From positions 193,750,001 through 193,814,000 of the forward strand of contig OZ038378.1 in NCBI GenBank assembly GCA_964036045.1: DNA of 64,000 nucleotides. Reading direction: 5' to 3'. Every line of letters begins with the position of its first letter. Position 1 is the first letter of the stretch. A model generated the notes under the pieces. It ran no database searches, was not told the origin of the DNA, and was given only the letters and a program-made list of their open reading frames with translations. Below are positions 1,345 to 61,078 of the stretch, piece after piece. Made by a program: the position numbers and the translations under genes. Origin of the DNA: Eutreptiella sp. 'Long Island Sound 2002' (taxonomy: Eukaryota; Protista; Euglenida).

Positions 1345-1473
1345 AGGCCTGCCCCTCCCCCGCACTCCCTTTGTTACGGGCGGGACTGCACGTTCCTGCG
1401 CTTCCTGTGTTGTTGCATAGGCCAAGAATCTTTGAGCTTGGGGCCCTTGGCCTTGAGCAATGGACCACCATAC

Positions 1474-1540
1474 CGCAGCCTTCCAATGGTTCTTCGGGGG
1501 CTTCTGGCTCCTCTTCCTTCTTTTTCTTGCCCTTGCTCAT
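1474..1540 (-). CDS. Probable first coding exon of an unidentified gene (MSKGKKKKEEEPEAPEEPLEGC-G); rest expected left of the window
   Basis: Pyrimidine tract + CAG acceptor (AG at 1564-1563) 22 nt before the ATG; protein-like K/E-rich N-terminus; GTATGG donor at 1473. No downstream exon found in 1-1470. Confidence 0.5.
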
Positions 1541-22400: not shown

Positions 22401-25400
22401 CAAACAAGATCTGCCGGGGGTAAGTGGCCGGGGCAACAGGTGACATGCATAATGATGCGGGACTCACATAAAAATCATCGCCATGGCACGCACAACCTTG
22501 TTCAGACGCCAATAAACTGACTGGGACCAGAGGTTCGGTGCTCCCTGCACTGCTCGTCTGTTATCTTGCAACATGTTGAATTGCGGAATGCCACAACCCA
22601 CTTCAGCGAATGCACTACCCCATATAACTCAGCGGCCAGCTGCGTGTTAACCCAGGCCGGGCAGTATAGTGGCTAGGCACCACCACCAACAGGATCAAAA
22701 AATCCCACTCTACATTTGGTTCATCCGAGGATGTCGAGAAAACTGGGCAACGTCGACAAACATCCATTTTACCCACATCTAGTTTGATTTTGACCACCTT
22801 GGTGGCTGAAAAGTTGCCGACACGATTGCCCAGGCTTGAACCAAATTGATCCATAACCGCGATGTCACACGAATGTACGAAGACCTATAATAAGATAATA
22901 GACCATAGATTCCCGCCAAAAATGGTAGGTGTCCCTTCTTGGGCATTGCCAACCACTTTAAACGACCCAAAATTCTGTGATTCTTCCTAACTGGCACCGT
23001 ATGTTGCCAAACATTCACTACTGCTGCCAATACCATAGCTACCAACAAAGTGTCATTCTAGACCATCAAATTCTTGACATCAACCACCTTCCCTAACCAC
23101 TTGACCCTGCGTGCGGGCTCAAGCATAGACTTAGCAGAGATCACAAAACCCGCCGCGACCAGCATGGCCATAACCCAATTCACACAGGCCCGCATCCATG
23201 TGTGGCCGGACTCAACTAACGAAACGTCGTCAAGGTAATGATCGTGCGGTATCTCCAAAGGCGAAGTACACCTTGGGGGGGGGGGGCATTCCGAGATGTC
23301 CCCCCACCAATTTTTGGCATAGGGGGGTCGTTTGGATCCGCAACGCCTGCAGATACACAGTTGGAGTCCTCGAAGTCAAATTCTTTTGGAGGGGCAAGCA
23401 GTGGTTTGTCATCCGCAACGGATGGGAGGGCTACAACGAACGGGCGTGAATGGAGGACCGATCGCCCCCCGTCTAGCGATTGCAACACATGTGGTGGGCG
23501 GCACCGAGCGTGGAACTGCAAGCGCAAGTGAAGGGGGGGGGTGGACAAGCATGCGGATGAGAGCGAGCCCAAATGGGGTCTAGCCCCTACCAGTGGAAAG
23601 GATTGTCACAGTGGCACATGCAAATTCTACATGCAAGTATTCATGTGGAATCAGGGCTGAGTCCACGCAGCGGTGCTATGAGCAACACCCATGGGCATGG
23701 GGCAATGCGCATGAGCAAGAGCCATTGACACCACTGCAAGAGATCCTACGGGAGTACATGGTCCAAATGTACAAAGAATACAAAATCTCTAGCTCTATGC
23801 GCCACACAGTCTCCGTGTGCCGGCCGTTGGAGGAAACAGAGGTCACCCAAATTTGTGCACAACTTTGGAGATTTGTTAGGACCAAAGCTAAAACCAACAC
23901 GTCACAACGCCAACAATGGGCATCGCTAGGGATGCAGGAAAGACTGGCCAGGTAGGCCCAGGCATACGAGGAGATCCTATGTGTGTTTGTCAGTCATCCC
24001 CATCACACCTCAAGACCTTGACCAACAGCGAGGGACCATCAAATTCTACGATAGGAAAACCCGTCGGTCCCGGTTGGCAATTCAAGCCAGTGACAACCTC
24101 TTCAAGGTCTTGGGGGTGGCTAGATCGGTTGCCATGCGGCTTGGTAGAGAAGCAGCAGGGCCAATGGTCGGTGGGGGTGCATTATGGCTACAAGCAATCT
24201 TGCGGCAACTCTTGCAAGGATCGGAGTTCTCGGAGGTACACTTGCACACATAGAGGAGGGCGGGAGCCACCCTCCTAGTTAGGAATGGAGTGACGGTACC
24301 AAAAATCATGGTGTGGGCCAAGTGGAAATTTGCAAAAGTGGCGAGGAGGTACATTGCCACATGGGAGGACATGCCATGGGAGGAGGCCCGGCTACCACAC
24401 CCCAAGGACGTGTTCGGGACGGCGGTGTGGTTTCACCATGGAGGAGTCTAAGGTATGACGGTTGTGGCCTAGAGCGCTTGGGTGGTTGGGGCACGGAGAT
24501 AGCTCGTTGTCGGGAATGGATTCCGTAGGTGTTGGGGACGACATTATTGGGAGTACTGCCAAGGATAAAGAGAGGCACCCAGACGGCCGCAGAGAAGTAC
24601 CAGAGAAACACACAGAGGTGCTGCAACACCCACAGTGGAGAAGAAGGTGGTCAAGAGACGGAGAGTTGAAGTGGCGAAGACCCTACTCGCGTTGGAGTTG
24701 GCAGCACGGGCAAAGCGAGCTGCGTCTTGTGCAAGGATAGGTGTCGTCGTATGACAACATCTAGTACTTCGTGCTTAGATCCAGTCACTCGCCCGTCCTT
24801 GGCCTTCTCTAGCTCTTTCTCTAGCTCCACCATTCGGGCCTTCATCTCGCACCACTCCTTGTCCTCCTGCACAGCACCCATACCCGGTGTGGTGGCTAGA
24901 TCCAACAGGACCTCACGGAACCCCTTGGTATTAGGATGGTACTACACCCCATCGACGTCTTCTGGACCATTAAATTTCCGAGTGCAATGCCCAACCAACT
25001 TCTGCTCCACCTTCATGGACTTCGCATTTGTGATGTGTTAGCCCCACCGGCCGGCATTTGCATTGTCAATGCCGCCACCTTCTTGGCTAACACCTCGCCT
25101 AGTTCCCGGCTGCCCCATAGTCCGAATGCATGCTATGAGAAAGCACAAAGGGCCATAGCATCTAGCGCACTCTTGGTTGGACAATTTTGGGCATGTGGGG
25201 TGTGTGTGTGTGAATCTATACCGCTTTCGACTCAAGAATGCGCTGGAATGTCAAAGCTTGCCTGGCTTTCAAATAAAAGGAACTTCCCCACCACATGTGC
25301 AGTAGAGAGCAAACAATAAAGCTTCAATGATTGGGTATCATACAAATGCAACCCCCGTTCGTGGAGCGAGCGGGTTGTTCTAACCTAACAACCTTTGCGA

Positions 25401-28400: not shown

Positions 28401-31400
28401 TTGATGTCCACAGGCTCGCCGTACTGCGAGAACGCCACCAGGACGTCTCCCTCCGTGACATTGAATGGTAGACCCCCTGTATCGGCCAGCGCCAACAAAG
28501 TAAAAGCGACCAACGAGCTGCCTCGAAAACAGAGGCCCAGTGCAATGCCCCATCGCACGTGCAGAACAAGCAGCCGACACACAGCACGCAGTGAGCCCGT
28601 TTGAAACCTCACCCTCCCCAATAAGCACTTAGCTACTGAGCACTGGCCTGTCCCCTTCCCCCTCGTGAGCACTGGTAACAGTGTGCTTGCAACCCACAGG
28701 GGGCAGTCAGGGAGGCGCTTGAGGGGGAGGGAGGCGAAAGGGAGGTATCAAGAACGGTTGCAAAACCGGTAAGTGGCGTCTGGAAAGCTATGACAGTCGC
28801 CGTGCTGGCGGTTGCAAAACGGGAAAACGGTTGGAGGTACGTAAGCAGTTGGGGCTGCATGGGGGCGGGAGTGGGGGCGACCCCTTCAAGCGCAGTCCTG
28901 GCGACAGTCCAATTCAGTTCCCGCTCCCAACCCACACAACGCGGGCAGGGGATCCAGAGCGTGGGGAGGTGTCAAAGGGCTTTTTTCTGATTTTGGGGGC
29001 GTTTTTGAATTCCCTGTTTCCTTCCGAGCATTTTGAATGTACTCAAGAGGGCGGGGAGTCAAAGCAACATGCGCGGGAGTACCCGACATGCAAAGCAACA
29101 TGCAGAGCCATGTTCAACTTGCATGCCAGCCCCCTGTCTGCAGTTCAAGCAAAACACAAACTGCGAACCATGAGAACGCAAAGAACCAAAATGTGGTAAG
29201 TAACGCCTCAACAGGCGACCACCCCCTTTTGGTGCTGTGCTACACACCCTCAATGAGTCTCAATGAACAGGCCATTTGGCCACCAGGTGTGTTGATAATC
29301 GTTAATGTGGAAAGGCCGTGTCGTTAGGCTCGAGGGGACTGCAAAGCCTCTCAATGAGCGCTCTCCTGCTGCCTGGGCATGTGTAAGCACGACCTTGGCA
29401 CAGGACCCCTTACCCTGCCAAAGGACACCCCTGACGTTCCTTACCAGGGCTGTTATTTCATGGTTGTGTTAAGAAGACTCACTGGCGGACCTGCTGGTGG
29501 GTGTGCTGCTGTTGTCTTGCATCAGCTCATGTCCCATAAGTGCAGGCAGACCGCCAGTGGACGGGGGGGGGGGCATGATTGCAAACCATATCTGGCATCA
29601 AACACCATCTTGGGCCTTGTGGTATCTGTCTGTCCGCAGTAGGGCACAGGTATTCCACCATCACTCTGTCCTGCCCCATCATGCCCCTCATGGCCCTCTC
29701 ACCTCACAACTTCATATGGCACGATAATGCCACGGGCCATGACAGCTCATCAGGCTGCCGCCTCGCCCTGGGCCCTTCTTCCGTACCTCCGCTGTACTAT
29801 ACACTGACTCATACCTATAAAAATGTACGCTGAATTCCGGTATTCGTGATGCCAACTGTGCTCCTGAGCAGGGACAGCAGACCTCTACGGTTGCCAATGC
29901 CTATGCTCGCCAAGGCAAAACCAAAACCACACAGACCGCAAGGAAAAACCAGGCAAAACCAGAGGCGAAACCAGGCAGAGGATGAGCCAACTCTTCTATC
30001 GTGCCTGAAGTGGGGGGAGGGACAAACATCATGTGCACAGCGAAGGGGAGAGTGTCCATTTCCACTGCATATCAGGGAGCAACAGAAAAAGGAAGCAAAC
30101 AGCCAAGAGGAGGGTGCAGGGGGGGCACAGGGGAGCTGAACTAGACCTCAACCCAATTCCATCCCTTCACATCTGTAGCTCCCAATTTTCCAATTTTGCT
30201 GTGAGTTTCTTGCTACCTGATCCCCAATTGTTCTTTCATTTGACCCCGGGTTTTCCTGGGTTGACCCTGGTTTTTGCACCACTTCTCACCAAACCACAAT
30301 ACATGACACTTTTCTCTTAGTCCGTGAATGAAAAGAGCAGGCCATTTACTGCCAAAACACTGCCAATCACCAATGCAATGCCCGCGAACGTTTTGCCCGC
30401 CGTGGATGCTGGGACAGGCATGGCCTGCATAATCTGAACTGCAGGCATTGTCCATTGTCACAGCCAAAGACGTTACCGCCCCCCCCCCCCCCTGTGCAAC
30501 GACCAGCAAGGTTTAACCATGTGACCTGCGGCTGGTCTTTGGACTATGGTTTCAGGCAAAAGAGTGCCGTTTGATCAGTGGCTGGTTATTGAAAAAGGCC
30601 ATGGGCACTTCTTCATCCTGGAAACTTTTCTCTGGAAATGTGCACAGAAGGTCTACAATTCAAATGGTTCCATAAGGGAGTCAATGGGGTACAAGCCCTT
30701 GTGTTCTGCGGGCAACAAAGTAGCGAACGAAAGCATGCTCTTGTTAACCAATGGGTGGCCGTTGTGCATACATGGAGCATCAATGGTCAGGTTGCAGTGT
30801 CCACATTGGGCCCGCGCGTGCGCCTCACGACTTTCATCGCCCACTGTCCATTTTGTTCGCATCCAGTGCATTCAGGTCCACTGATGTGGACCTGGCCTGT
30901 CCCTCCCTGAATGGTTTGGGCTCCGCTCATCAGGCTACTGGGTCAGGCATACATCCTGATCAGCGGTCACTCCTCCTCTGGGTGCTAGTTAGCTGGCCCC
31001 ATTCGGCCCTCCCAGGTCTAGCATGTCATTGGTCTTTAGGTTGAAGAACCCAGTGGGTACAGGCTGCTGGTTTTGGCATAAAACATACAAGGGGGGGTGC
31101 ATGTTCTGCTTGCTGGGAGGCTCCTCGAAGCAGCTGTACTCTAACCGGCTGGAATCCTCCATTGCCACCAGCTGCAGCTCACAGCGTTACACATTGCGAC
31201 CCCTACATGACCGTCGTGGCTATGGACACATGACACATCTGAACGAGCGGAACCCAGGTGCATAGACAGGTTTACGGCATTCTCATTCATTCGTCACAGC
31301 CCTGTCCTGCATATGCAGGACAGGGCTGTGACGAATGAATGAGAATGCCGTAAACGCGTGTTTGCGAGCGAAGCGAGCAAATACGCGTTTACGTATTTGT

Positions 31401-34400
31401 CCCATTCTGCTTAGCCGGTTTCTCTGTGTGGCAAGCTAGCCTCACAGTTGATACTATGCCCGCTAAAGCTACTCGTGACACTGCTGGGGATCACACAATG
31501 ACAGATCCCACGCAAGATAGTACCCAACCACCAGGCCCATTACCGGGGCCTTGTATCCTGCGCACACCTGCGGCAGTGCAAGCACGAGAAGCGTTCAACC
31601 GATGGAGCGCTACCGCATATCAAGCCCTGACCCGATCTGGGTCACACACTGAGGAGCTGGACCACTGGATGATATCCCAATGGGAAGCTATTGCCGAATC
31701 TGCTGTGGAGGATCACCAAATTCGTGCGCTAGCCGAGGCATGTAACATGGAACAAATCGAGACGGCAGAGTTTGTCGCGGTGCTGGGTGCGTACTGTGGC
31801 CGCAAAGCACTTCGCATGGACTACATGGATGGCACATTTCATGAAGCGCCCCCTACGATTACCGACCTGCCAGCGACGGCGCGAGCTCAAGAACAACGAA
31901 TTAACGAACTGACCGCCGCCCTCCAGAAGAAAGATGCCGAGTTGGAGAAAGCGCGCGTTCCGAGAGCCCCACCCCTCACTGCTGCACGAGTCAATGACCT
32001 GGCGAGCACCCGAATGAGGTTCCAATGGATGAACACCCTGCTCTCAGCTATGCAGGGTTTGCAACAAGTTCCGTTGAATGCCCAAGACTGGACCCAGGAT
32101 GTGTTTATACAAAAGGTGTGGTGCTTACTGCACCTGGAGATGGCCAATAAGCGACAATCCCGGGGGACACCTGTACGTGAACAAGAGGCCACAGCACAGT
32201 CTGGTGGCTCTGTGGAGGTCATCAACAACAGCCCTGCTGGGCAAGCCCACACGGAGCAACGTGACCCTCAGCGAGATTCTCGTAAGCCGGGGCGATGTTT
32301 CAAATGTCACCAGATGGGTCACTGGGCCACCGATTGTCCAGCAGCAGTGGGCCAAGGGTACCTCATTCATCGTGATGGCAAAGAATTTTGGATGTCCGCC
32401 ACTGGAGTGGAGTGGGATACCTCTGAACCACCGCCGGGGAACTGCACCAAATGTGGACAGCGACATTGGTCGCATAAACCGACGGCTACGTGTTCAGGAC
32501 GAGTGGTTCGGCAAGTACAGGCGCAAGCTACGACGTCCGACAAGGTTGAGGCCTGGGATGATGCTATTTTCGAAAACATGGTGAACGAGTTTCGCCAGGC
32601 TGCCGGAAGTGGGCCCGCGGGCCCACAATGACTCACCGACCGACTCCGCTGCTCCGCGCGTGCCCCGCAGACCCGTCAGCCCCCGCGACAGCCCCACAGC
32701 CTGCCGCCCCCACACTCGCACTCGCCATCCACGCGATCACACACACGTCTACCATCCCGTTCGGGGTTAATGCGGTATCCACCATGCTCCGAAAATGGGA
32801 ACCCGGTACTATCCGCACCTATCTCAGCGCCCTTCGGCAGCTCCTCGCACATGCACCCCCCGACAGCACCCTCGCAGACGCCATATCCCTTCGGCTCCTA
32901 CACCGGGCAGCGACCCGCAGGTCACCATCCGCAGCAAAAATACTCGTCTCAGCTATCATTATGTGCCAAAGACTCTCGCTCATCCCCGAAGTCCTCACAG
33001 AGTCCCATCGCCTCACCCTATCGGCAATCGTCAAATATACATCCCACCGCACCATCCCAAAACCCTGGGCAACAATACAGCATGTCCAGTCCATCGGAAG
33101 ATGGCGCATGTATTGGGGGTGGGCCCGCCTGTATTTCCTCATTATGGCCAGCACCATCTACCTTTGGCGAGTGCAAGACGCAGCCGGAATCCAATGGCGC
33201 TGGTTGCAGATCCCTGGCTGAATCACATTTTACGACCATAAAATTAATAGAGAGCTCGTCAGCTATCCCCTCAGTGACTACATGGACGCCTGGCGAGCGT
33301 ACATTGTCGCATGTAAAAGGAGTGACGTCCCCTGGGATGCTGCCGTCATCCCAGGGGGCGCGCGGGAACTCCAACGTGCAATGGCGGACCTCCTGCGATA
33401 CGAAGAGCTGGCTGAAGTGCGATGGCATGGGTGGAAAAAGTTGGGCGCAGCGTTGTTCATCCTACTGGGAGGAGCACTGTCCTCCCTCCAGCGGTGGGGA
33501 AGGTGGCATTCCCCACATCAACCCAGACGCTACTCCCATGCCCCACCCGCATGGCGCCTACCTGACCGAGTCCAGCTCCCGTACCCCGTGGCTACCACCA
33601 ACAGCCCCGTGCGCGATATGGAATGGCGGCTTGTACGACTATCCGAATTATGGCCGCGTGATACGTTTGCCAAGCCATGCACGGCTCCCGTCCGTGCACC
33701 ACAGCAGTTGGAACTCGCTTATGCAGCCACATACCAACCCTCGTCCACAGGCCGCGAGAGCGACGAGACACCGTCCATCGGTGAGTCCACCGATACCGAT
33801 AGATCGGATGTGCAGTCTCAGTGCTCAGAGTCGACGTCGATGGCGCAATCAGAATCGATGGAGGCACCACCAACGACAAATCATGCAATCCACCATGGAG
33901 TTACTACACCACCCCCTGCCGGTGAGCCACTGGCGACATGCCCTGCAACTGCTCCTGGTGGGTGTCCAAGCATGGGTGCTGTTGCTAGCGCTGTGGCTGC
34001 GACGCCTTTACCATCTTCACAAGTGCCAGATGGGGTTCATCATGGCAGCACTGGCGGTTTGGAGGGCCGTATGGGAACCGTGCGACCTGCAGGGCCCATC
34101 AGCGAACCCCCAGCAAAACGTCCTATGTGTGGGCATCAACCCACTTCGGATCCCACACCACACCATGGCTATGAGCTCACCGCGCCTCGGCGCGGGGATG
34201 CATATGCACATTGGCGACCTTTGTGGTTGCGCGAAACTGCATCGGAGCCCGTGCAGTATATGTCACATCCCCATACAACAACATCTCCAACGGAGTGCAG
34301 AGCTCATTGCCCAGAAATTGAAAGTGTCGGTGACGAATGTGACTATGTTGTTGCGGGATTTGATTGTGTTGATGGTGAACCGCCTACCAGTGGACCCCCC

Positions 34401-37400
34401 CCCCAACCCACCTTCCCCAAGTGTGACACCACCCCCGTCCCCGAACCATTCACCCCAACCGCCGCCGGAGCCGCCGCCTTCGCCATTGGCGCCTGTACAC
34501 CAACTACTACACCAGCTGGCCACAGATCCGTCCGTAATCTCCGACACCTCTCCCACAGCACGCCCCAACCACAGCACCGACACCAGCCCGACGGAGGGTA
34601 CCCCTTCGCAAGCATCGGTGACCCCTGACATGGTGCAGCGCGGATTGGGCGATGCGGGACATGTTGACATACCCCAGCCCCTGTGGCAGTCCTGTGCGCC
34701 GGCTAACTACACGTGGGCCACTGAGCAGGCACCACCCCAGTGCCACTCCCATGATCCACTGCTGCTCATGTTGGCTTCTAAATTAGAGGCGTCAGGACTG
34801 CTGTGTGAATGCCCCCCCCATTTGCGCCCAAATGCCAAAGCATATCTCAAACCTAAGTCAGCCCAAAAGTGTGCCTTGATTGTAAATATGATTCCCATCA
34901 ATGACCGTTGTTTGCCCCCCCCCCATTTACCCTCCCAAGTTTAGATTCACTGGCGCATGTAATTACTGTAGCTCTGCTTAGGGGTCGACCCTTGTATTTC
35001 ACTAAACTAGACATCAGTAATATGTTTTGGAGTTGTAAAGTGCCAGCAGAGCACAGGCATGCTGTCCGTATTGGAGTTTGTGGAAAAGTCTTCTCATTTC
35101 CGGGATTGCCTTTTGGCTGGAACGCCAGCCCCGCAATTGCTCAGCAGTTGCTTGCGCTTTACATTCAGCAATTGTACCCGGGGGAGACAGTCGTGATCCA
35201 ATATATGGACGATATTCTAGTGGTAGGACCTGACAAACAACATGTTCAACATCAAACGGACCACCTAATTCACCAGTTTCAAACACATCGTTGGGTAGTT
35301 AGTGCTAAATCCGATGTAGACCCTAAGCATACAGTCACCTGGATGGGCAAACATTTTGATGGCCTGCGTGGAGTTGTTGCCACCGGGACCCAGTATTTGG
35401 TGGGAGTCGTCGTGCTCTGGATTAAGCTTGGTACACGAGGTTACCAGAGCACACTGTTACAGCGCCTTTTGGGCAAACTGCAGTGGGCTCTACGACCTGG
35501 CCGCGGAGCCGCTGCCTTTTTGGCAGGGCCGTATGCATGGCTTCAGCAGGGGCCTCCAGTGGCAAAGTGCACGCCCCCGGCAGTTTTGCGTGCGCTTGCT
35601 GAGGCAGCAGCTGCTGCCATTGTGCCTTGGACCGCGCCGGTTACCCCCCCGTGTGGCCCCACGTGGTTTGTAGATGCAGCAGGCACCTGGACGGGATACT
35701 GGGGAGCCATCTGGAGCCCCTACATGCGGCCTAAGACTTTCCAGCTCCCTGATTGGGTGCACACACAGCAAGCTGCTGAGCTTGCGGCTGTTGTTAACGC
35801 AGCACGAGTGGCCGCATACAAAGGCCATCATTCATTGAACTTGCTAATAGACAACCAAGCCGCAATTTGCACTGCAATTTCCGGTAAAGCTAAGTTTCGT
35901 TGTCCTGCACAATTGAGATTACTGCGTCAGTTACAGCATATTTTACGCTGGTCTGGGTTACAGCTGGCATGTTATTGGGTCCCCAGTGCCTTCAATCCTG
36001 CTGACCCCCCATCACGGTGGTGGAAATACCCCACTCCCATTCTTACCGATTTGGAGGCCTGGACCGTGTACAGCAGACTGCTGGCTTCACCTTTTGTGCC
36101 ACAGTTTGTGGCACAGACCAAGTATCGTGGGTGACACGGTAAATTACATTTTATGCAGGACAGGGCTGTGACGAATGAATGAGAATGCCGTAAACGTGTG
36201 TTTGCGAGCGAAGCGAGCAAATACGCGTTTACGTATTTGTCCCATTCTGCTTAGCCGGTTTCTCTGTGTGGCAAGCTACTCACAGCCCTGTCCTGCATAA
36301 GTACTTGCAAAGTACTGCATATTTACAGGCAGCCAACGAGGGCCAGTTCAGTCTGAAGACTGATTCAAGTAGACTGGGGGGCGGGCGGGTGGGGCTGTGA
36401 GGCTAGCTTGCCACACAGAGAAACCGGCTAAGCAGAATGGGACAAATACGTAAACGCGTATTTGCTCGCTTCGCTCGCAAACACACGTTTACGGCATTCT
36501 CATTCATTCGTCACAGCCCTGTCCTGCATAAAATGTAATTTACCGTGTCACCCACGATACTTGGTCTGTGCCACAAACTGTGGCACAAAAGGTGAAGCCA
36601 GCAGTCTGCTGTACACGGTCCAGGCCTCCAAATCGGTAAGAATGGGAGTGGGGTATTTCCACCACCGTGATGGGGGGTCAGCAGGATTGAAGGCACTGGG
36701 GACCCAATAACATGCCAGCTGTAACCCAGACCAGCGTAAAATATGCTGTAACTGACGCAGTAATCTCAATTGTGCAGGACAACGAAACTTAGCTTTACCG
36801 GAAATTGCAGTGCAAATTGCGGCTTGGTTGTCTATTAGCAAGTTCAATGAATGATGGCCTTTGTATGCGGCCACTCGTGCTGCGTTAACAACAGCCGCAA
36901 GCTCAGCAGCCTGCTGTGTGTGCACCCAATCAGGGAGCTGGAAAGTCTTAGGCCGCATGTAGGGGCTCCAGATGGCTCCCCAGTATCCCGTCCAGGTGCC
37001 TGCTGCATCTACAAACCACGTGGGGCCACACGGGGGGGTAACCGGCGCGGTCCAAGGCACAATGGCAGCAGCTGCTGCCTCAGCAAGCGCACGCAAAACT
37101 GCCGGGGGCGTGCACTTTGCCACTGGAGGCCCCTGCTGAAGCCATGCATACGGCCCTGCCAAAAAGGCAGCGGCTCCGCGGCCAGGTCGTAGAGCCCACT
37201 GCAGTTTGCCCAAAAGGCGCTGTAACAGTGTGCTCTGGTAACCTCGTGTACCAAGCTTAATCCAGAGCACGACGACTCCCACCAAATACTGGGTCCCGGT
37301 GGCAACAACTCCACGCAGGCCATCAAAATGTTTGCCCATCCAGGTGACTGTATGCTTAGGGCCTACATCGGATTTAGCACTAACTACCCAACGATGTGTT

Positions 37401-40400
37401 TGAAACTGGTGAATTAGGTGGTCCGTTTGATGTTGAACATGTTGTTTGTCAGGTCCTACCACTAGAATATCGTCCATATATTGGATCACGACTGTCTCCC
37501 CCGGGTACAATTGCTGAATGTAAAGCGCAAGCAACTGCTGAGCAATTGCGGGGCTGGCGTTCCAGCCAAAAGGCAATCCCGGAAATGAGAAGACTTTTCC
37601 ACAAACTCCAATACGGACAGCATGCCTGTGCTCTGCTGGCACTTTACAACTCCAAAACATATTACTGATGTCTAGTTTAGTGAAATACAAGGGTCGACCC
37701 CTAAGCAGAGCTACAGTAATTACATGCGCCAGTGAATCTAAACTTGGGAGGGTAAATGGGGGGGGGGGCAAACAACGGTCATTGATGGGAATCATATTTA
37801 CAATCAAGGCACACTTTTGGGCTGACTTAGGTTTGAGATATGCTTTGGCATTTGGGCGCAAATGGGGGGGGCATTCACACAGCAGTCCTGACGCCTCTAA
37901 TTTAGAAGCCAACATGAGCAGCAGTGGATCATGGGAGTGGCACTGGGGTGGTGCCTGCTCAGTGGCCCACGTGTAGTTAGCCGGCGCACAGGACTGCCAC
38001 AGGGGCTGGGGTATGTCAACATGTCCCGCATCGCCCAATCCGCGCTGCACCATGTCAGGGGTCACCGATGCTTGCGAAGGGGTACCCTCCGTCGGGCTGG
38101 TGTCGGTGCTGTGGTTGGGGCGTGCTGTGGGAGAGGTGTCGGAGATTACGGACGGATCTGTGGCCAGCTGTTGTAGTAGTTGGTGTACAGGCGCCAATGG
38201 CGAAGGCGGCGGCTCCGGCGGCGGTTGGGGTGAATGGTTCGGGGACGGGGGTGGTGTCACACTTGGGGAAGGTGGGTTGGGGGGGGGGTCCACTGGTAGG
38301 CGGTTCACCATCAACACAATCAAATCCCGCAACAACATAGTCACATTCGTCACCGACACTTTCAATTTCTGGGCAATGAGCTCTGCACTCCGTTGGAGAT
38401 GTTGTTGTATGGGGATGTGACATATACTGCACGGGCTCCGATGCAGTTTCGCGCAACCACAAAGGTCGCCAATGTGCATATGCATCCCCGCGCCGAGGCG
38501 CGGTGAGCTCATAGCCATGGTGTGGTGTGGGATCCGAAGTGGGTTGATGCCCACACATAGGACGTTTTGCTGGGGGTTCGCTGATGGGCCCTGCAGGTCG
38601 CACGGTTCCCATACGGCCCTCCAAACCGCCAGTGCTGCCATGATGAACCCCATCTGGCACTTGTGAAGATGGTAAAGGCGTCGCAGCCACAGCGCTAGCA
38701 ACAGCACCCATGCTTGGACACCCACCAGGAGCAGTTGCAGGGCATGTCGCCAGTGGCTCACCGGCAGGGGGTGGTGTAGTAACTCCATGGTGGATTGCAT
38801 GATTTGTCGTTGGTGGTGCCTCCATCGATTCTGATTGCGCCATTGACGTCGACTCTGAGCACTGAGACTGCACATCCGATCTATCGGTATCGGTGGACTC
38901 ACCGATGGACGGTGTCTCGTCGCTCTCGCGGCCTGTGGACGAGGGTTGGTATGTGGCTGCATAAGCGAGTTCCAACTGCTGTGGTGCACGGACGGGAGCC
39001 GTGCATGGCTTGGCAAACGTATCACGCGGCCATAATTCGGATAGTCGTACAAGCCGCCATTCCATATCGCGCACGGGGCTGTTGGTGGTAGCCACGGGGT
39101 ACGGGAGCTGGACTCGGTCAGGTAGGCGCCATGCGGGTGGGGCATGGGAGTAGCGTCTGGGTTGATGTGGGGAATGCCACCTTCCCCACCGCTGGAGGGA
39201 GGACAGTGCTCCTCCCAGTAGGATGAACAACGCTGCGCCCAACTTTTTCCACCCATGCCATCGCACTTCAGCCAGCTCTTTGTATCGCAGGAGGTCCGCC
39301 ATTGCACGTTGGAGTTCCCGCGCGCCCCCTGGGATGACGGCAGCATCCCAGGGGACGTCACTCCTTTTACATGCGACAATGTACGCTCGCCAGGCGTCCA
39401 TGTAGTCACTGAGGGGATAGCTGACGAGCTCTCTATTAATTTTATGGTCGTAAAATGTGATTCAGCCAGGGATCTGCAACCAGCGCCATTGGATTCCGGC
39501 TGCGTCTTGCACTCGCCAAAGGTAGATGGTGCTGGCCATAATGAGGAAATACAGGCGGGCCCACCCCCAATACATGCGCAATCTTCCGATGGACTGGACA
39601 TGCTGTATTGTTGCCCAGGGTTTTGGGATGGTGCGGTGGGATGTATATTTGACGATTGCCGATAGGGTGAGGCGATGGGACTCTGTGAGGACTTCGGGGA
39701 TGAGCGAGAGTCTTTGGCACATAATGATAGCTGAGACGAGTATTTTTGCTGCGGATGGTGACCTGCGGGTCGCTGCCCGGTGTAGGAGCCGAAGGGATAT
39801 GGCGTCTGCGAGGGTGCTGTCGGGGGGTGCATGTGCGAGGAGCTGCCGAAGGGCGCTGAGATAGGTGCGGATAGTACCGGGTTCCCATTTTCGGAGCATG
39901 GTGGATACCGCATTAACCCCGAACGGGATGGTAGACGTGTGTGTGATCGCGTGGATGGCGAGTGCGAGTGTGGGGGCGGCAGGCTGTGGGGCTGTCGCGG
40001 GGGCTGACGGGTCTGCGGGGCACGCGCGGAGCAGCGGAGTCGGTCGGTGAGTCATTGTGGGCCCGCGGGCCCACTTCCGGCAGCCTGGCGAAACTCGTTC
40101 ACCATGTTTTCGAAAATAGCATCATCCCAGGCCTCAACCTTGTCGGACGTCGTAGCTTGCGCCTGTACTTGCCGAACCACTCGTCCTGAACACGTAGCCG
40201 TCGGTTTATGCGACCAATGTCGCTGTCCACATTTGGTGCAGTTCCCCGGCGGTGGTTCAGAGGTATCCCACTCCACTCCAGTGGCGGACATCCAAAATTC
40301 TTTGCCATCACGATGAATGAGGTACCCTTGGCCCACTGCTGCTGGACAATCGGTGGCCCAGTGACCCATCTGGTGACATTTGAAACATCGCCCCGGCTTA

Positions 40401-42959
40401 CGAGAATCTCGCTGAGGGTCACGTTGCTCCGTGTGGGCTTGCCCAGCAGGGCTGTTGTTGATGACCTCCACAGAGCCACCAGACTGTGCTGTGGCCTCTT
40501 GTTCACGTACAGGTGTCCCCCGGGATTGTCGCTTATTGGCCATCTCCAGGTGCAGTAAGCACCACACCTTTTGTATAAACACATCCTGGGTCCAGTCTTG
40601 GGCATTCAACGGAACTTGTTGCAAACCCTGCATAGCTGAGAGCAGGGTGTTCATCCATTGGAACCTCATTCGGGTGCTCGCCAGGTCATTGACTCGTGCA
40701 GCAGTGAGGGGTGGGGCTCTCGGAACGCGCGCTTTCTCCAACTCGGCATCTTTCTTCTGGAGGGCGGCGGTCAGTTCGTTAATTCGTTGTTCTTGAGCTC
40801 GCGCCGTCGCTGGCAGGTCGGTAATCGTAGGGGGCGCTTCATGAAATGTGCCATCCATGTAGTCCATGCGAAGTGCTTTGCGGCCACAGTACGCACCCAG
40901 CACCGCGACAAACTCTGCCGTCTCGATTTGTTCCATGTTACATGCCTCGGCTAGCGCACGAATTTGGTGATCCTCCACAGCAGATTCGGCAATAGCTTCC
41001 CATTGGGATATCATCCAGTGGTCCAGCTCCTCAGTGTGTGACCCAGATCGGGTCAGGGCTTGATATGCGGTAGCGCTCCATCGGTTGAACGCTTCTCGTG
41101 CTTGCACTGCCGCAGGTGTGCGCAGGATACAAGGCCCCGGTAATGGGCCTGGTGGTTGGGTACTATCTTGCGTGGGATCTGTCATTGTGTGATCCCCAGC
41201 AGTGTCACGAGTAGCTTTAGCGGGCATAGTATCAACTGTGAGGCTAGCTTGCCACACAGAGAAACCGGCTAAGCAGAATGGGACAAATACGTAAACGCGT
41301 ATTTGCTCGCTTCGCTCGCAAACACACGTCTTCCTCTTCATCCATGAGACCAGATGGAGGGACTACAGTGGCTGCTGGGATACCATTGGGGACATCGGCG
41401 ACTGCCCCTGCGGCGTGCGAAAGGTGTTATGCGCAGGTCCCACAAAATACGGGGTTGCTGCTGGGGCTCGCGTGACTGGCATCATCACCCCTCATGCTGG
41501 TTTGGGTGCTGGTACCAGGGAGAGGTGAAGGGGGGTTTGTATCCATTCTCTTGGCCAGCTGAACCGGCACACACACTTCAATGTCCCATAGTGGGGATTG
41601 GGGGGGGGGGGGGGGGCCTGGTGGACTTTCCCAGTTGGCTGCAGACCCTTCGCTGGGGTGTCCCCTGCAAGAGCGCCTCTGAGGGGGGGGGGGGAGGTGG
41701 CTGTGCATCCTCTGGGCACTCTTCTGGTTTCCACTCCTCCCACCCTGCAATGGGGTCCTCTTCAGTCTCCTCCTCTGTGGGCTCTTCCTGCCGCCTGGGA
41801 TGCACCGATACGTGGCCAAAAACGAGGAGGGGGAGGGGTTGCGCCGTCCCTCATCTGCCAAATGGTCTGCCCTGGAATCACCTGGTATTTCGATATGGGA
41901 CGGTGCGTGAAGCCACTTTACTTTCTCCCCAAGCTGTTCCGTTATGCACAAAATGGCCTCCCACAGATCCCTGCGTTGGATGGGCCCCTTGGCATTGCCC
42001 CAGTTGTGGCGCCGCCATCGCTGCGCCCACCCCAAAACCCCTTCCACAATCAATAAGCAGCCCGGGCAAATAAGGGACCGCTAACCAGGCCTGTGCCCCT
42101 CCTGCGCTCGTAGGGACGCCCGCAGCTCTCCTCGGGTATTCGTTTGTTCCTCATTCAGCGGGATAAATGCTGCTCTGTCCCTTCGTCACACCGTACCATC
42201 ACCCTCATATTCACAAAGAAGTACCAGGTAGGGGTCCACTGTCGTTCACTGAACTTTAGAGCATAACGTACCAACCATGATGCCCTGACTGCAGTCCAGA
42301 GGACCAGGCCCAGGGGGATACCCCTTCCCTACACAACCACAGCTGAAGGCAAGGGAAACGATAGTCCGACCGGGCTCCTGCGCTTAGAAAAGATGGCTCT
42401 TGGGGACTTTTGGGCCCTAAGCAAACCCAAATCGGCACACCCAGTGTGCTTTACACGATTTACAAGAATCAGGTCATGATGCGTCCCTGGATCTGAGAAT
42501 GTCAGAGGGTAGTTGAACTTGAGGTCCCTCACATGTTGCTTGGTGCGAAGACAGGACAGTTGCAGACCCACTCCCATGTGTTTTGTGCACAAAATGAGGT
42601 GAAGTGCCAAGAGACGGAAGACATGCCAACTGAGACACTCAGGATTCAATGGTGAGAATGCCCGTGGGACGACAGATTGTTGCCCTTGAAGCGTCAAAAG
42701 GGAGAGCTCATGAGGCTTCGTGTGTCGCGGGCTGCTGTGTTCTACACGACGTGGACTCAGGCAGGCCACATATTCCCTGTGCTTGCACTAGGCACTCATA
42801 GTGCACCCCATCGCAGTCTCAACGTGGAGTCAAAAAACGCAAGATGGAGGTGTACAGTGCTTACCCTGAGGGTTCTATGACAGGGCGTACCTCAGAGCCA
42901 TCCACACCCAGAGCGAGCTCCTTCTTGTTGATGCGGTCGATTTCCTTCACGACATTCAT
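12827..42959 (-). CDS. RBMX2: RBMX2/Snu17(Ist3)-like RRM protein (RES complex), 7 exons, 1242-nt CDS, 413 aa
   Basis: Exons 42959-42891, 29863-29815, 28476-28385, 20866-20777, 17523-17407, 15104-14928, 13474-12827 join in phase across GT-AG introns. They give [111 protein letters not shown], the typical RBMX2 RRM, followed by a K-rich and RD-rich tail. Confidence 0.92.
14928..15104 (-). CDS. RBMX2: RBMX2-like exon 6
   Basis: GACAG acceptor and GTACGC donor; 59 codons [15 protein letters not shown]...SSDSSGSE. Confidence 0.8.
16643..16838. mobile_element. R1-related repeat bounded by a C-run and a G-run
   Basis: C-run start, internal TTTGTAACCGACAGTTAACGCCAACCGC (reverse of the R1 GCGGTT motifs), ends CCTTCTAATGCATCCC + G-run. 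Confidence 0.45.
17407..17523 (-). CDS. RBMX2: RBMX2-like exon 5
   Basis: TTACAG acceptor and GTCTGT donor; [15 protein letters not shown]. Confidence 0.9.
17849..18079. repeat. 36-bp exact direct repeat pair
   Basis: ACATGCTTTACATAGCTTGGATGGTCATTGTGAGTG at 17849-17884 and 18044-18079. Confidence 0.8.
20777..20866 (-). CDS. RBMX2: RBMX2-like exon 4 (RNP1)
   Basis: GCGCAG acceptor and GTCCCC donor; [30 protein letters not shown]. Confidence 0.93.
22340..23340 (-). pseudogene. RT/RNase H pseudogene of element #2
   Basis: HYLDDVSLV...[12 protein letters not shown]...KWLGK aligns with QYMDDILVV...[11 protein letters not shown]...TWMGK of the intact RT; stops and frameshifts present. Confidence 0.75.
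23440..24400 (+). pseudogene. Gag C-terminal knuckle + tyrosine recombinase pseudogene of element #2
   Basis: [21 protein letters not shown] vs [21 protein letters not shown]; GTIKFYDRK vs G*ITFYDHK; [10 protein letters not shown]...WAKW...RRY...RLPHP vs [11 protein letters not shown]...WGRW...RRY...QLPYP. Confidence 0.8.
25390..26830 (-). pseudogene. Highly degenerate YR retrotransposon remnant #3 (YR C-terminus, spacer, RT N-terminus)
   Basis: [25 protein letters not shown] (about 26670-26760) resembles the YR H..R/GAA/WG.W block; PHSLW and NVFWN resemble PQPLW and NMFWS of the intact RT, in the same order. Confidence 0.4.
27053..27454. mobile_element. Tc1/mariner-type MITE, C-run TIR family, copy 2
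   Basis: Same TIR as 3845-4423; TA at 27051-27052 and 27455-27456; different internal length. Confidence 0.85.
28385..28476 (-). CDS. RBMX2: RBMX2-like exon 3 (RNP2)
   Basis: GATACAG acceptor and GTGCGT donor; [31 protein letters not shown]. Confidence 0.93.
28715..28893. mobile_element. MITE-like repeat, family R1
   Basis: GCGCTTGAGGGG / CCCCTTCAAGCGC inverted ends; GCGGTTGCAAAAC motifs. Confidence 0.55.
29815..29863 (-). CDS. RBMX2: RBMX2-like exon 2
   Basis: CTCAG acceptor and GTATGA donor; [17 protein letters not shown]. Confidence 0.9.
30450..30870 (-). pseudogene. Degenerate RNase HI remnant (retroelement-derived)
   Basis: Frameshifted motifs YPIDS and [10 protein letters not shown]...GN resemble RNase HI blocks; by eye only. 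Confidence 0.3.
31270..31355. repeat. Perfect 86-bp palindrome (B repeat head-to-head)
   Basis: GTTTACGG...CCTGCAT|ATGCAGG...CCGTAAAC centred at 31312/31313. Confidence 0.95.
31456..32631 (+). CDS. gag: Gag-like protein (391 aa), plus copy
   Basis: CCHC knuckle [14 protein letters not shown], second Cys/His motif CTKCGQRH, coiled coil [22 protein letters not shown]. Confidence 0.85.
   Translation: MPAKATRDTAGDHTMTDPTQDSTQPPGPLPGPCILRTPAAVQAREAFNRWSATAYQALTRSGSHTEELDHWMISQWEAIAESAVEDHQIRALAEACNMEQIETAEFVAVLGAYCGRKALRMDYMDGTFHEAPPTITDLPATARAQEQRINELTAALQKKDAELEKARVPRAPPLTAARVNDLASTRMRFQWMNTLLSAMQGLQQVPLNAQDWTQDVFIQKVWCLLHLEMANKRQSRGTPVREQEATAQSGGSVEVINNSPAGQAHTEQRDPQRDSRKPGRCFKCHQMGHWATDCPAAVGQGYLIHRDGKEFWMSATGVEWDTSEPPPGNCTKCGQRHWSHKPTATCSGRVVRQVQAQATTSDKVEAWDDAIFENMVNEFRQAAGSGPAGPQ
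32628..34628 (+). CDS. Tyrosine recombinase ORF with one in-frame TGA (33219-33221) and a long Pro/Thr-rich tail, plus copy
   Basis: Motifs LWRVQDA (R), FYDHK (K), [14 protein letters not shown]; ORFs 32628-33221 and 33282-34628 are in the same frame. Confidence 0.8.
32770..36134 (+). pseudogene. pol: Pol (RT + RNase H), plus copy, frameshifted at a C10 run near 34915-34924
   Basis: [21 protein letters not shown]; RNase H FVDAA / AAEL / IDNQ / NPAD. The minus copy has C11 and is intact, so the shift may be a homopolymer sequencing error. Confidence 0.85.
36152..36530. repeat. Tail-to-tail junction: B-A, inverted B(1-20), unique about 95 bp, then A-B reversed
   Basis: B 36152-36195, A 36194-36285 (2-nt deletion), TCACAGCCCTGTCCTGCATA 36280-36299, unique 36300-36394, reverse A 36395-36488, reverse B 36487-36530. 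Confidence 0.9.
36548..39913 (-). CDS. pol: Pol ORF (1121 aa from first ATG; RT/RNase H in the last about 500 aa), minus copy, intact
   Basis: Uninterrupted ORF with DIRS-type RT (YMDD) and RNase H motifs; the frame stays open upstream to the gag stop. Confidence 0.9.
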   Translation of the reverse strand: MRYPPCSENGNPVLSAPISAPFGSSSHMHPPTAPSQTPYPFGSYTGQRPAGHHPQQKYSSQLSLCAKDSRSSPKSSQSPIASPYRQSSNIHPTAPSQNPGQQYSMSSPSEDCACIGGGPACISSLWPAPSTFGECKTQPESNGAGCRSLAESHFTTIKLIESSSAIPSVTTWTPGERTLSHVKGVTSPGMLPSSQGARGNSNVQWRTSCDTKSWLKCDGMGGKSWAQRCSSYWEEHCPPSSGGEGGIPHINPDATPMPHPHGAYLTESSSRTPWLPPTAPCAIWNGGLYDYPNYGRVIRLPSHARLPSVHHSSWNSLMQPHTNPRPQAARATRHRPSVSPPIPIDRMCSLSAQSRRQWRNQNRWRHHQRQIMQSTMELLHHPLPVSHWRHALQLLLVGVQAWVLLLALWLRRLYHLHKCQMGFIMAALAVWRAVWEPCDLQGPSANPQQNVLCVGINPLRIPHHTMAMSSPRLGAGMHMHIGDLCGCAKLHRSPCSICHIPIQQHLQRSAELIAQKLKVSVTNVTMLLRDLIVLMVNRLPVDPPPNPPSPSVTPPPSPNHSPQPPPEPPPSPLAPVHQLLQQLATDPSVISDTSPTARPNHSTDTSPTEGTPSQASVTPDMVQRGLGDAGHVDIPQPLWQSCAPANYTWATEQAPPQCHSHDPLLLMLASKLEASGLLCECPPHLRPNAKAYLKPKSAQKCALIVNMIPINDRCLPPPPFTLPSLDSLAHVITVALLRGRPLYFTKLDISNMFWSCKVPAEHRHAVRIGVCGKVFSFPGLPFGWNASPAIAQQLLALYIQQLYPGETVVIQYMDDILVVGPDKQHVQHQTDHLIHQFQTHRWVVSAKSDVGPKHTVTWMGKHFDGLRGVVATGTQYLVGVVVLWIKLGTRGYQSTLLQRLLGKLQWALRPGRGAAAFLAGPYAWLQQGPPVAKCTPPAVLRALAEAAAAAIVPWTAPVTPPCGPTWFVDAAGTWTGYWGAIWSPYMRPKTFQLPDWVHTQQAAELAAVVNAARVAAYKGHHSLNLLIDNQAAICTAISGKAKFRCPAQLRLLRQLQHILRWSGLQLACYWVPSAFNPADPPSRWWKYPTPILTDLEAWTVYSRLLASPFVPQFVAQTKYRG
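38055..40055 (-). CDS. Tyrosine recombinase ORF with in-frame TGA (39462-39464), minus copy
   Basis: Same motifs and same internal stop as the plus copy. Confidence 0.8.
40052..41227 (-). CDS. gag: Gag-like protein (391 aa), minus copy
   Basis: Same translation as the plus copy in the ORF track; CCHC knuckle. Confidence 0.85.
   Translation of the reverse strand: MPAKATRDTAGDHTMTDPTQDSTQPPGPLPGPCILRTPAAVQAREAFNRWSATAYQALTRSGSHTEELDHWMISQWEAIAESAVEDHQIRALAEACNMEQIETAEFVAVLGAYCGRKALRMDYMDGTFHEAPPTITDLPATARAQEQRINELTAALQKKDAELEKARVPRAPPLTAARVNDLASTRMRFQWMNTLLSAMQGLQQVPLNAQDWTQDVFIQKVWCLLHLEMANKRQSRGTPVREQEATAQSGGSVEVINNSPAGQAHTEQRDPQRDSRKPGRCFKCHQMGHWATDCPAAVGQGYLIHRDGKEFWMSATGVEWDTSEPPPGNCTKCGQRHWSHKPTATCSGRVVRQVQAQATTSDKVEAWDDAIFENMVNEFRQAAGSGPAGPQ
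41890..42180 (-). pseudogene. RNase HI domain remnant (non-LTR retroelement type)
   Basis: [12 protein letters not shown]...[11 protein letters not shown]...RRDLWEAI...[25 protein letters not shown], with an internal stop and decayed catalytic residues. Confidence 0.75.
42891..42959 (-). CDS. RBMX2: RBMX2-like exon 1
   Basis: [23 protein letters not shown]; GTACGC donor. Confidence 0.9.
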
Positions 42960-46778: not shown

Positions 46779-48328
46779 CAGACCTGGAGATAGAGTGTAT
46801 CCACATTAGCACGGGATACACACTTTTTGTTTTTGGGATACACACAGGATACACACTCTAGAACTCTGGGATACACATGTGATACATGCAAACCATGAAA
46901 AATGGGGCTGGGGAGCCTGAGCTAGAAGAGGAGTCATCATCCTTTGCAGAGGGAGCTGTAAGATGCGGCTTCAAAGATAATTGCTTCATCGTGTCTGGGG
47001 AAGAGCCGCAAGGGAACGAAGGACTGGGGAACTGAGCGCGTAGGACTATAAATGAAGAAAAAGTTGGGATACACATGTGATACACACACTTGAAAGTTGA
47101 GATACACAGTCGAGTCCAGTGAGCTTGGCGTATCGATGCGTTTCGCGGTTCGTTGCCCCCGACTATTCGCCCCTAGTTGGATAGCTTAACCGCCCGTAGG
47201 TATACGTTGGCGGCTGTCGGAAGCTACACTATACAAGGCGCCCTTCGACATCCAAGTTGAAGCGCGCCATAAAAGCCAATCGCCTCATCTGATTCAACAA
47301 CTTGTTTTGCTTCTTGGAGACGTTGCCAGCTTGCGAGAAGAACCTCTCCACTGCCCCACTGCTGGTAGGGATGGTGATCAAGAACAACACCGCCTCCTTG
47401 AAAAGGGAGTCTGGCCGACTCTCCCACCATGCAAGAAGTTCATCACCGTTGTTGACTTTGGGGAAGTCAGAGCTGCCTTGCGGCAAGCAACCGGCAATGG
47501 TGGTGTACTTCTGCAACCAAGCACGCACAAGGGGGTGATCCAGCTTGTCCAACGGGATGCCGGCACCGGCGAAGGCAAAGACCGTATCATCAGCGGCCTT
47601 GTTCTTGTCGTTGCATGACGCCACAACGGATTGTAGGCTGGGCTGCCTCATTGCGGCTTTATGAGGTAGAGCATCTGCCTCTGCCTCTAGGCGGCGCTCG
47701 ACCCGTGCCTTCTCCCTCTTCTGCATAGTCTCAACGGCCACCTGGTGCTTTTTGGAGTCCAAATGACATTGGACTGTGCTCTTCGTTGTGTGGCTCACGG
47801 GGCATCCACACGCATCGCACCATAGTACTTCAATACCAAGATCATTGGTGCGGAGACTCAGGGGATGGCCAGGGAATTGTTCCTTCCGCTTCCCAGGGCC
47901 CATAGTGCAATACTTTGCGCCGGCACCACCTCTCCCCTTACCACGTACTTTGCGGCGGGGTGGGCTATTTCCATCATCAGATGTGGGCTCAGAAGGAGGG
48001 CAATGGGAGGGCATAGCATGTGACATGTCTAAGGGAAAAGGAGCCATGTAACAAACAAAAGTGGCGGTGTTGGGAAGGTATGCAAACACTGACTTGACTA
48101 CAAAACTACCCTTTAGTTGAACTACACAATGCCACTTGAATGTATCCTCTTGAACATTACACTAAGGGACCTGCCCAGAAAATGCGAAAAAAAATGCGGA
48201 AAATGCGAAAAAATGCGAATCGCATTTTCCCCCCCCCCCTGTACACATTGGACACACACTTCTAAAACCTGGGATACAGTCGGATACAATAATTACAAGT
48301 TTTGGGATACACTCTATCTCCAGGACTG
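46779..48328 (-). mobile_element. Non-autonomous hAT DNA transposon (1550 bp)
   Basis: 24-bp TIR CAG(A/T)CCTGGAGATAGAGTGTATCC (1 mismatch); perfect 8-bp TSD CGCCTGCC (46771-46778, 48329-48336); GGATACAC subterminal repeats at both ends. Confidence 0.92.
47229..48047 (-). CDS. Internally deleted hAT transposase (CGGBP1-like Zn finger/DNA-binding part fused to the dimerization domain), 272 aa
   Basis: WCDACGCPVSHTTKSTVQCHLDSKKH, AGIPLDKLDHP, then WW...LITIPTSSGAVERFFS; the DDE core is absent. Confidence 0.8.
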   Translation of the reverse strand: MAPFPLDMSHAMPSHCPPSEPTSDDGNSPPRRKVRGKGRGGAGAKYCTMGPGKRKEQFPGHPLSLRTNDLGIEVLWCDACGCPVSHTTKSTVQCHLDSKKHQVAVETMQKREKARVERRLEAEADALPHKAAMRQPSLQSVVASCNDKNKAADDTVFAFAGAGIPLDKLDHPLVRAWLQKYTTIAGCLPQGSSDFPKVNNGDELLAWWESRPDSLFKEAVLFLITIPTSSGAVERFFSQAGNVSKKQNKLLNQMRRLAFMARFNLDVEGRLV

Positions 48329-60998: not shown

Positions 60999-61078
60999 CT
61001 GAGCAGAAATATGGATCACACGGGGCCTACTGCAGAGTAAATTCCAGATGGCGGAACGCCATGAGTGGGTGTCTCCGC

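What the first reader, a model, noticed from the sequence alone, without database searches (positions are those of the whole stretch)
31456..36134. Gag and pol share one frame split by a single UGA; YR starts on that stop and overlaps the pol frame for 2 kb
Seen: translating on from the gag TGA (32629-32631) gives no stop before the track's pol ATG (32770). In the minus copy the frame is open from 41227 to 36548 (1559 residues) apart from that UGA. Its context is CAA-UGA-CUC, preceded by the perfect palindrome GGGCCCGCGGGCCC (32611-32624). The same bases form the YR start (AUGA), and both frames stay open for about 666 codons (YR has one internal UGA). Known: a 5' CAA and 3' C favour readthrough in viral leaky stops; gag-pol readthrough occurs in gammaretroviruses. 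Inference: one codon may act as a three-way switch (Gag stop, Gag-Pol readthrough, YR reinitiation). I know of no such scheme described for YR elements.
Basis: partly seen in the sequence, partly recalled or inferred. Interest (0 to 1): 0.85.

Follow-up and report, generated by a model that had tools for sequence, protein, structure and literature searches.

The report
Frameshifted copies of triple-coded retrotransposon
These two copies of a jumping gene lack one DNA letter, which swaps its reading frames; in the family's other copies the recombinase gene sits in frame behind the first gene's stop codon and the copying-enzyme gene overlaps it one letter out of step, so ribosomes likely reach them by reading through the stop and by slipping one letter just before it.

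Summary
The sequence facts are right; the frame assignment is a two-copy accident. Both window copies lack one C (run 32663-32666) and share a TGG-to-TGA change in the recombinase (YR). The main contig of 5 of 5 runs covering the site, and 7 of 7 sibling proteins spanning it, carry that C. In the family form YR, not pol, follows the gag UGA in frame. Pol lies in the +1 frame, opens 44 nt before the stop and covers all of YR. The AUG on the stop heads only 47 codons. A diverged subfamily shows the same frames. The 2-kb overlap is real: 0 stops against 10 expected (P 5e-5). This layout is published for trypanosome VIPER elements, where pol is in the -1 frame. New here are an in-frame UUU-CGC (+1 shift motif of PA-X and amalgaviruses) two codons after the pol frame opens, with GAG-UUU-C kept in three subfamilies, and UGA kept in all three. 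Likely products: Gag, Gag-Pol by +1 shift, Gag-YR by readthrough; none is tested. This scan noted gag-UGA-C-RT junctions in YR elements of two other genomes.

The parts
31313..31353 (+). Repeat B; precedes A at the 5' end of the plus copy and at both 3' ends; an inverted partial B lies at 31260-31312
31354..31447 (+). Repeat A1 (94 bp), 5' terminus; ends in CACAG 8 nt before the gag ATG
   Evidence: the minus copy starts at the same base (41329); three sibling gag ORFs have different flanks at this point
31456..32631 (+). gag-like ORF1, 391 aa, CCHC knuckle at residues 280-295, stop TGA
   Evidence: Pfam zf-CCHC E 5.5e-5 on the minus-copy ORF
32582..32584 (+). Last stop of the +1 frame inside gag; the family-form pol frame is open from 32585
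32587..32595 (+). Candidate +1 frameshift site GAG UUU CGC in the gag frame (inferred)
   Evidence: only in-frame UUU-CGN among 391 gag codons; subfamily B GAG TTT CGC, subfamily C GAG TTT CAA
32609..32626 (+).
   Evidence: present in MFE and centroid folds, but z-scores -0.01 to -1.16, not significant
32626..32634 (+). gag stop context CAA UGA CUC; contains the AUG at 32628
   Evidence: B CCA TGA Y, C CAA TGA C
32663..32666 (+).
   Evidence: extra base in the main contigs of X1, X3, X7 and X1, X4, X5; 7 of 7 non-window sibling proteins spanning it
32632..34628 (+). YR reading frame (in frame with gag in the family form); recombinase domain about 32793-33548, conserved AUG at 32784, low-complexity tail with a conserved motif near 34167
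   Evidence: PHROGs phrog_1 integrase E 0.0068; 75-79% identity to subfamily C
33219..33221 (+). Nonsense TGA in YR shared by both window copies
   Evidence: TGG in the main contigs of X1, X3, X7; W in homologues
32585..36134 (+). pol reading frame (+1 to gag and YR in the family form): long N-terminal part over YR, RT core about 34912-35309, RNase H-like end; broken near 34915 in the plus copy
   Evidence: Pfam RVT_1 E 6.5e-13; intact 1175-aa sibling ORFs P0045, P0047
36153..36285 (+). 3' repeats B then A2 (A2 lacks 2 nt), followed by 14 further bases of inverted B; no direct B2 found
36395..41329 (-). Second, inverted copy; 7 substitutions and 1 indel from the plus copy; pol intact, same C loss and YR nonsense

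Best explanation
The window holds two defective sister copies of a gag-YR-RT/RNase H retrotransposon whose family form has YR in frame behind the gag UGA and pol in the +1 frame over all of YR, and it likely makes Gag by normal termination, Gag-Pol by a +1 ribosomal slip at UUU-CGC (32590-32595) and Gag-YR by occasional UGA-C readthrough. Shown: frames in the window, the one-base loss and the YR nonsense change, the family frames, selection against stops in the pol frame. Inferred: both recoding events. Predicted products in the family form: Gag 391 aa, Gag-YR 1057 aa, Gag-Pol about 1559 aa. My odds: layout 0.9; pol by +1 shift 0.45-0.5; YR by readthrough 0.45 against its own AUG 0.4.
For: Layout: extra base in the main contig of 5 of 5 runs that cover the site (X1, X3, X7; X1, X4, X5; X1 and X4 are one sample). 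Six sibling pol ORFs begin in the +1 frame upstream of the stop, two intact at 1175 aa. P0082, a subfamily C copy, reads as one open frame that is +1 to gag (74 of 78 residues compatible) and +1 to YR (138 of 140). All AUG-started YR forms (window pair, P0040, P0004/P0021, P0008) switch frame at one of two C runs. Overlap; A-vs-C differences by YR codon position 24/102, 11/106, 64/106, so YR residues are conserved while pol is only kept open; P0018 (41% identity) hides YR in its -1 frame (score 192, shuffles max 42). +1 shift: motif position and conservation; no pol-frame AUG between 32585 and 32770, and the YR residue that supplies AUG 32770 (Asn) is Ser in B and C; UUU_CGN is a described +1 motif (PMC5052127, passages). 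Readthrough: UGA in 3 of 3 subfamilies, +4 C in A and C; no stop in the 51 codons to AUG 32784; P0018 lacks that Met yet aligns upstream of it.
Against: No expression data. C has UUU CAA, not CGN; another in-frame UUU CGU occurs by chance in RT-RH (35895); the motif was noticed after the fact. No stem behind the UGA (z +1.08, +0.83, folded on the window form). The 25 codons before AUG 32784 show no third-position bias (10/20, 7/20, 10/20), and that Met is kept in 8 of 8 rows. All three ORFs of the element end in TGA, so UGA may be a habit. In-frame gag and YR could be a by-product of selection on the pol frame alone. In X7 a second contig (depth about 4 of 8.5) covers the site without the extra base. 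In subfamily B the one copy spanning the junction (P0002) joins gag +1 to YR, and the pol-frame piece of P0009 stops inside YR. P0019, P0020 and P0059 have long pol extensions that hide no YR. Contigs drop rare variants.
Confidence: 0.45

Rival explanations
1. Same family layout, but YR and pol are made from separate shorter RNAs (splicing, trans-splicing or internal promoters) using their own AUGs, 32784 for YR and 32770 or later for pol; no recoding.
For: YR Met kept in 8 of 8 rows, with A at -3; T. cruzi VIPER YR starts with AUG right behind the stop; alternative downstream pol starts are reported for VIPER (PMC5146736); repeat A ends in an AG just before gag; weak coding signal upstream of 32784.
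Against: The pol frame is kept open over the whole YR domain (P 2e-4) although that part is not conserved as protein (35-44%); AUG 32770 appears not to be kept in B and C; P0018 lacks the YR Met; no joint in the one RNA run laid, which covers 15 of 30 bins; the host group is unknown.
Confidence: 0.3
2. Pol comes by the +1 shift, but YR is made by reinitiation or leaky scanning at AUG 32784; the in-frame UGA is a by-product.
For: The A and C spacers differ by 2 codons (51 and 49; counted), which pol-frame selection alone explains; no 3' stem.
Against: Two out-of-frame AUGs (32628, 32770) lie ahead of 32784; reinitiation after a long ORF is generally poor (recalled).
Confidence: 0.15
3. One reading: the short-C form is functional, with Gag-Pol by readthrough and YR by reinitiation at AUGA, perhaps as an alternative phase state of the element.
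For: One-base losses giving this frame set arose at least four times (window pair, P0040, P0004/P0021, P0008); AUGA is present in A, B and C; one X7 contig lacks the extra base.
Against: Minority form; the window pair also has a dead YR; C-run losses occur elsewhere in these copies with plainly destructive effect (34915 in the plus copy, P0057), so they look like slippage or assembly error.
Confidence: 0.07

Closest known systems
VIPER (T. cruzi; VIPER-like subgroup of order DIRS)
   Same: Order gag, YR, RT/RH; ORF1 169-1509, YR 1510-2517 in frame right behind the stop, RT/RH 1386-4214 starting inside gag and covering all of YR (PMC5146736; PMC6681497 Additional file 3); CCHC box; RNase H resembling hepadnavirus (weak Pfam DNA_pol_viral_C, E 0.045; PMC6681497 section 9).
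   Different: Pol is +1 here, -1 in T. cruzi VIPER (arithmetic on those coordinates); YR has no AUG at the stop; RT has YMDD where the VIPER copies I read by eye have WIDN or YLDN; no B2 repeat found; no VIPER protein among the hits.
TATE (Leishmania and relatives)
   Same: Same ORF order; long YR ORF overlapping RT/RH; several copies show only 5' A1 and 3' A2.
   Different: TATE Gag has no clear CH box; in the listed three-ORF copies ORF3 starts late in or after YR, not inside gag.
DIRS-like and Ngaro-like YR retrotransposons
   Same: gag, RT/RH and YR with extensive overlaps; YxDD RT and a GRW..Y-type YR end (motif assignment recalled).
   Different: YR comes last in Ngaro; no methyltransferase seen; no ITR/ICR structure.
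+1 frameshift at UUU_CGN (influenza PA-X, amalgaviruses); UGA-C readthrough (alphaviruses)
   Same: In-frame UUU CGC inside the ORF1/ORF2 overlap; UGA followed by C (PMC3159437, search listing only).
   Different: Untested here; C has UUU CAA; no 3' structure behind the UGA.

Membership tests
YR retrotransposon (order DIRS) | RT with RNase H | tested here: met
   RVT_1 E 6.5e-13; RNase H part judged by motifs in the alignment only
YR retrotransposon (order DIRS) | Tyrosine recombinase instead of DDE integrase | tested here: met
   Weak: PHROGs integrase phrog_1 E 0.0068, 2 of 8 members; no relevant Pfam or PDB hit; fold unusable; H-x-x-K in place of H-x-x-R
YR retrotransposon (order DIRS) | gag-like ORF1 | tested here: met
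   zf-CCHC
VIPER-like (VIPER/TATE) | Order gag, YR, RT/RH with YR and RT/RH overlapped | tested here: met
VIPER-like (VIPER/TATE) | Split direct repeats A1 ... B1 A2 B2 | tested here: inconclusive
   A1, B1 and A2 present; no direct B2 behind either 3' end, but the two 3' ends abut each other
VIPER-like (VIPER/TATE) | RT groups with the VIPER-like clade | not testable with these tools
   No named reference proteins returned; the paper's .fas alignments cannot be read; the profile search never ran
VIPER-like (VIPER/TATE) | Kinetoplastid host | tested here: inconclusive
   Host not identified: coded organism labels and estuary metagenomes; 5 of 145 ORFs gave only generic domains
Ngaro-like / DIRS-like | YR downstream of RT/RH | tested here: not met
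   YR lies upstream of RT
gag-pol stop readthrough (gammaretrovirus type) | gag and pol in one frame across a single stop in intact copies | tested here: not met
   Only in the copies lacking the C
UUU_CGN +1 frameshift site | Motif in the ORF1 frame within the overlap, conserved in relatives | tested here: inconclusive
   UUU CGC in A and B, UUU CAA in C
UUU_CGN +1 frameshift site | Measured frameshift product | not testable with these tools
   needs a reporter or proteomics

The most novel reading that the evidence does not exclude
A YR retrotransposon makes all three proteins from one RNA through two recoding signals 40 nt apart at the end of gag: a PA-X-type +1 slip at UUU-C gives Gag-Pol, and UGA-C readthrough gives Gag-YR. 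This would pack both enzymes as Gag fusions and explain why pol must stay open across the whole recombinase gene; the trypanosome VIPER would be its -1 frameshift counterpart.
Probability: 0.25. Interest if true: 0.75.

Novelty: new variant of a known kind. Interest (0 to 1): 0.5.

Why it matters
How YR retrotransposons translate their nested ORFs is not addressed in the papers my searches returned. This family offers a short, testable junction with two candidate recoding signals and a statistically clear 2-kb double-coded region. It extends the VIPER-type layout to another eukaryote with the opposite frame offset. It is also a warning: one missing base in a C run turns the layout into a different, equally tidy three-ORF scheme, so recoding claims from single copies need sibling copies or reads.

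Tried and rejected
YR structure prediction gave pLDDT 38.7 and was not used for a fold search. Pfam and PDB found no recombinase match. The metagenome scan with YR found 0 of 164 stretches; RT scans gave 3 of 309 and 6 of 159 stretches at 21-29% identity, none with a YR match. The Atlas and the representative-protein search returned nothing usable. Rfam had 0 hits. TGA as a sense codon of the host was rejected: homologues have TGG/W there. A stop-start chain gag to 47-codon ORF to pol (UAAUG at 32768-32772) exists in family A, but its AUG appears not to be kept in B or C. A stem behind the UGA was not found. RNA run X12 covers 15 of 30 bins, not the junction, and says nothing on expression; X9 does not cover the C run. 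Proteins starting downstream of the C run were left out of the 7-of-7 count; only 15 of 21 members of the pol cluster and 15 of 16 and 15 of 18 of two gag clusters were listed.
Full report
Observation. The window carries two inverted copies of a 4.9-kb element (plus 31354-36285, minus 41329-36395) that differ at 7 substitutions and 1 indel. ORF1 has a CCHC knuckle, the long ORF an RT domain, and the overlapping ORF matches a phage integrase family weakly (E 0.0068; nothing relevant in Pfam or PDB). The plus copy has an extra break near 34915.

The window copies are not the family form. Laid on the minus copy, the main contigs of runs X1, X3 and X7 all have one more base 36-38 nt behind the gag stop and TGG in place of the internal YR TGA. 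A closer lay shows the extra C behind 32662 in X1, X4 and X5. That is 5 of 5 runs covering the site; X1 and X4 are one sample; X9 and X12 do not cover it; in X7 a second contig covers the place without the extra base. Against the X1 contigs the minus copy has 14 substitutions, 9 of them shared with the plus copy, so the two descend from one defective copy. Predicted proteins from sibling copies agree: of 7 non-window proteins that span the run, all 7 have the extra base; 6 are pol ORFs that begin in the +1 frame upstream of the stop, two of them intact at 1175 aa; the seventh (P0040) loses a base at the next C run.

Family layout. With that base, YR is in frame with gag behind CAA UGA CUC, with no stop in the 51 codons to AUG 32784; pol is +1, open from 32585; the AUG on the stop ends after 47 codons at TAA 32768. 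Two diverged subfamilies were found (gag 73% and 63% identity). In subfamily C one frameshifted copy, P0082, reads a single open frame that is +1 to gag residues 313-390 (74 of 78 compatible) and +1 to YR residues 23-162 (138 of 140), so gag and YR share a frame there too. The three C proteins that start at the AUG on the stop switch into YR at one of two C runs, as in family A. The stop is TGA in A, B and C, followed by C in A and C and by C or T in B. For B the junction frame is not settled: P0002 joins gag +1 to YR, while the other B proteins were called from starts further down.

The overlap is selected. Synonymous permutation of YR predicts 10.05 stops in the pol frame; there are none (P 5e-5; domain 2e-4; tail 0.006); controls in the third frame and in RT-RH are as expected, and gag +1 is borderline (8 against 11.3, P 0.048). 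Between A and C the YR domain is 75-79% identical and the pol frame over it 35-44%, with differences mostly at YR third positions: that stretch of pol is kept open rather than conserved. C pieces cover YR 23-162, 245-305 and two tail stretches. P0018, 41% identical in pol, hides YR in its -1 frame (192 against at most 42 in 8 shuffles), whereas P0019, P0020 and P0059 do not. One B piece (P0009) stops inside YR.

Mechanism (inferred). An open but unconserved pol frame reaching back into gag suggests entry by frameshift. Two codons after the last +1 stop, gag reads GAG UUU CGC, the only in-frame UUU-CGN in its 391 codons; B has the same codons, C has GAG UUU CAA (also a loose end). UUU_CGN is the +1 motif of PA-X and amalgaviruses, with about 1-2% efficiency (PMC5052127, passages). 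For YR, readthrough of UGA-C is slightly favoured over its own AUG: P0018 lacks that Met but aligns upstream of it, and two other AUGs lie in the way; against this, the Met is kept in 8 of 8 rows, the upstream codons show no clear coding signal and no 3' stem exists. Separate RNAs remain a serious rival, more so if the host trans-splices; the host was not identified.

Comparison. T. cruzi VIPER has ORF1 169-1509, YR 1510-2517 and RT/RH 1386-4214 (PMC5146736, passages; PMC6681497 Additional file 3): the same nesting, with pol in the -1 frame. Other VIPER and TATE copies vary in frame. Reading two T. cruzi copies by eye (Additional file 10, part 4 of 6), the gag UGA is followed directly by AUG, and an A-AAA-AAC heptamer, a 6-nt spacer and a 10-bp stem lie just upstream, which fits a -1 shift. 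Membership of the VIPER-like clade could not be tested by a tree; RT motifs differ and B2 was not found. It works like a VIPER-type element but is not filed as one.

Literature seen. PMC6681497: abstract, passages, sections 6, 7, 9, Additional files 3 and 5, parts 1 and 4 of file 10. Passages only: PMC5146736, PMC12278014, PMC8547959, PMC5052127, PMC3783388, bioRxiv 10.64898/2026.05.21.726589. PMC3159437: listing only. Searches for readthrough or frameshifting with YR elements listed 2, 1, 0 and 4 papers; by title and abstract start none proposes this, and I did not open them. Two earlier notes of this scan describe gag-UGA-C-RT junctions in YR elements of other genomes; I did not check them.

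Verdict. Observation confirmed; the switch as drawn comes from a one-base loss; the overlap is real and its layout known; the +1 site and Gag-YR readthrough are new, plausible and untested. Interest 0.5.

Noticed in passing
window 22547-24400: A second, degenerate YR-type element: RT/RNase H remnant on the minus strand (23258-22547) and a YR-like remnant on the plus strand (24032-24352), i.e. on opposite strands; an 81-nt direct repeat at 22122 and 25299 flanks the region.
   Followed up: partly
PMC6681497 Additional file 10, T. cruzi VIPER copies: By eye, a classic -1 frameshift signal (A-AAA-AAC, 6-nt spacer, 10-bp stem) nine codons before the gag stop, inside the gag/pol overlap; one search returned no paper with these terms.
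   Followed up: partly
window 34160-34400: Both frames carry conserved motifs here: a YR-tail motif ([12 protein letters not shown]) in subfamilies A, B and C, and a helical pol-frame motif (LLRDL..L..NR) kept in relatives at 35-41% identity. Function unknown.
   Followed up: partly
window 36300-36641: The B-A repeat region has about five times the contig depth of the element body in X1, and two sibling proteins end in B-encoded residues, suggesting many solo B-A units.
   Followed up: no
window 36278-36404: The two copies meet tail to tail across a 125-nt spacer; with inverted B pieces at 31260-31312 and behind 36285 the locus looks like a local inverted duplication or an assembly fold-back.
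   Followed up: no
P0022: A subfamily C copy with YR fused to RT/RH in one 1115-aa ORF by frameshifts; two B. saltans TATE copies are also single-ORF.
   Followed up: no
window 41430-42080 (-), 47232-48161 (-), 57645-61015 (-): RNase H remnant next to the minus copy, a weak hAT-like remnant, and armadillo-repeat host exons around long 5-nt tandem repeats.
   Followed up: no
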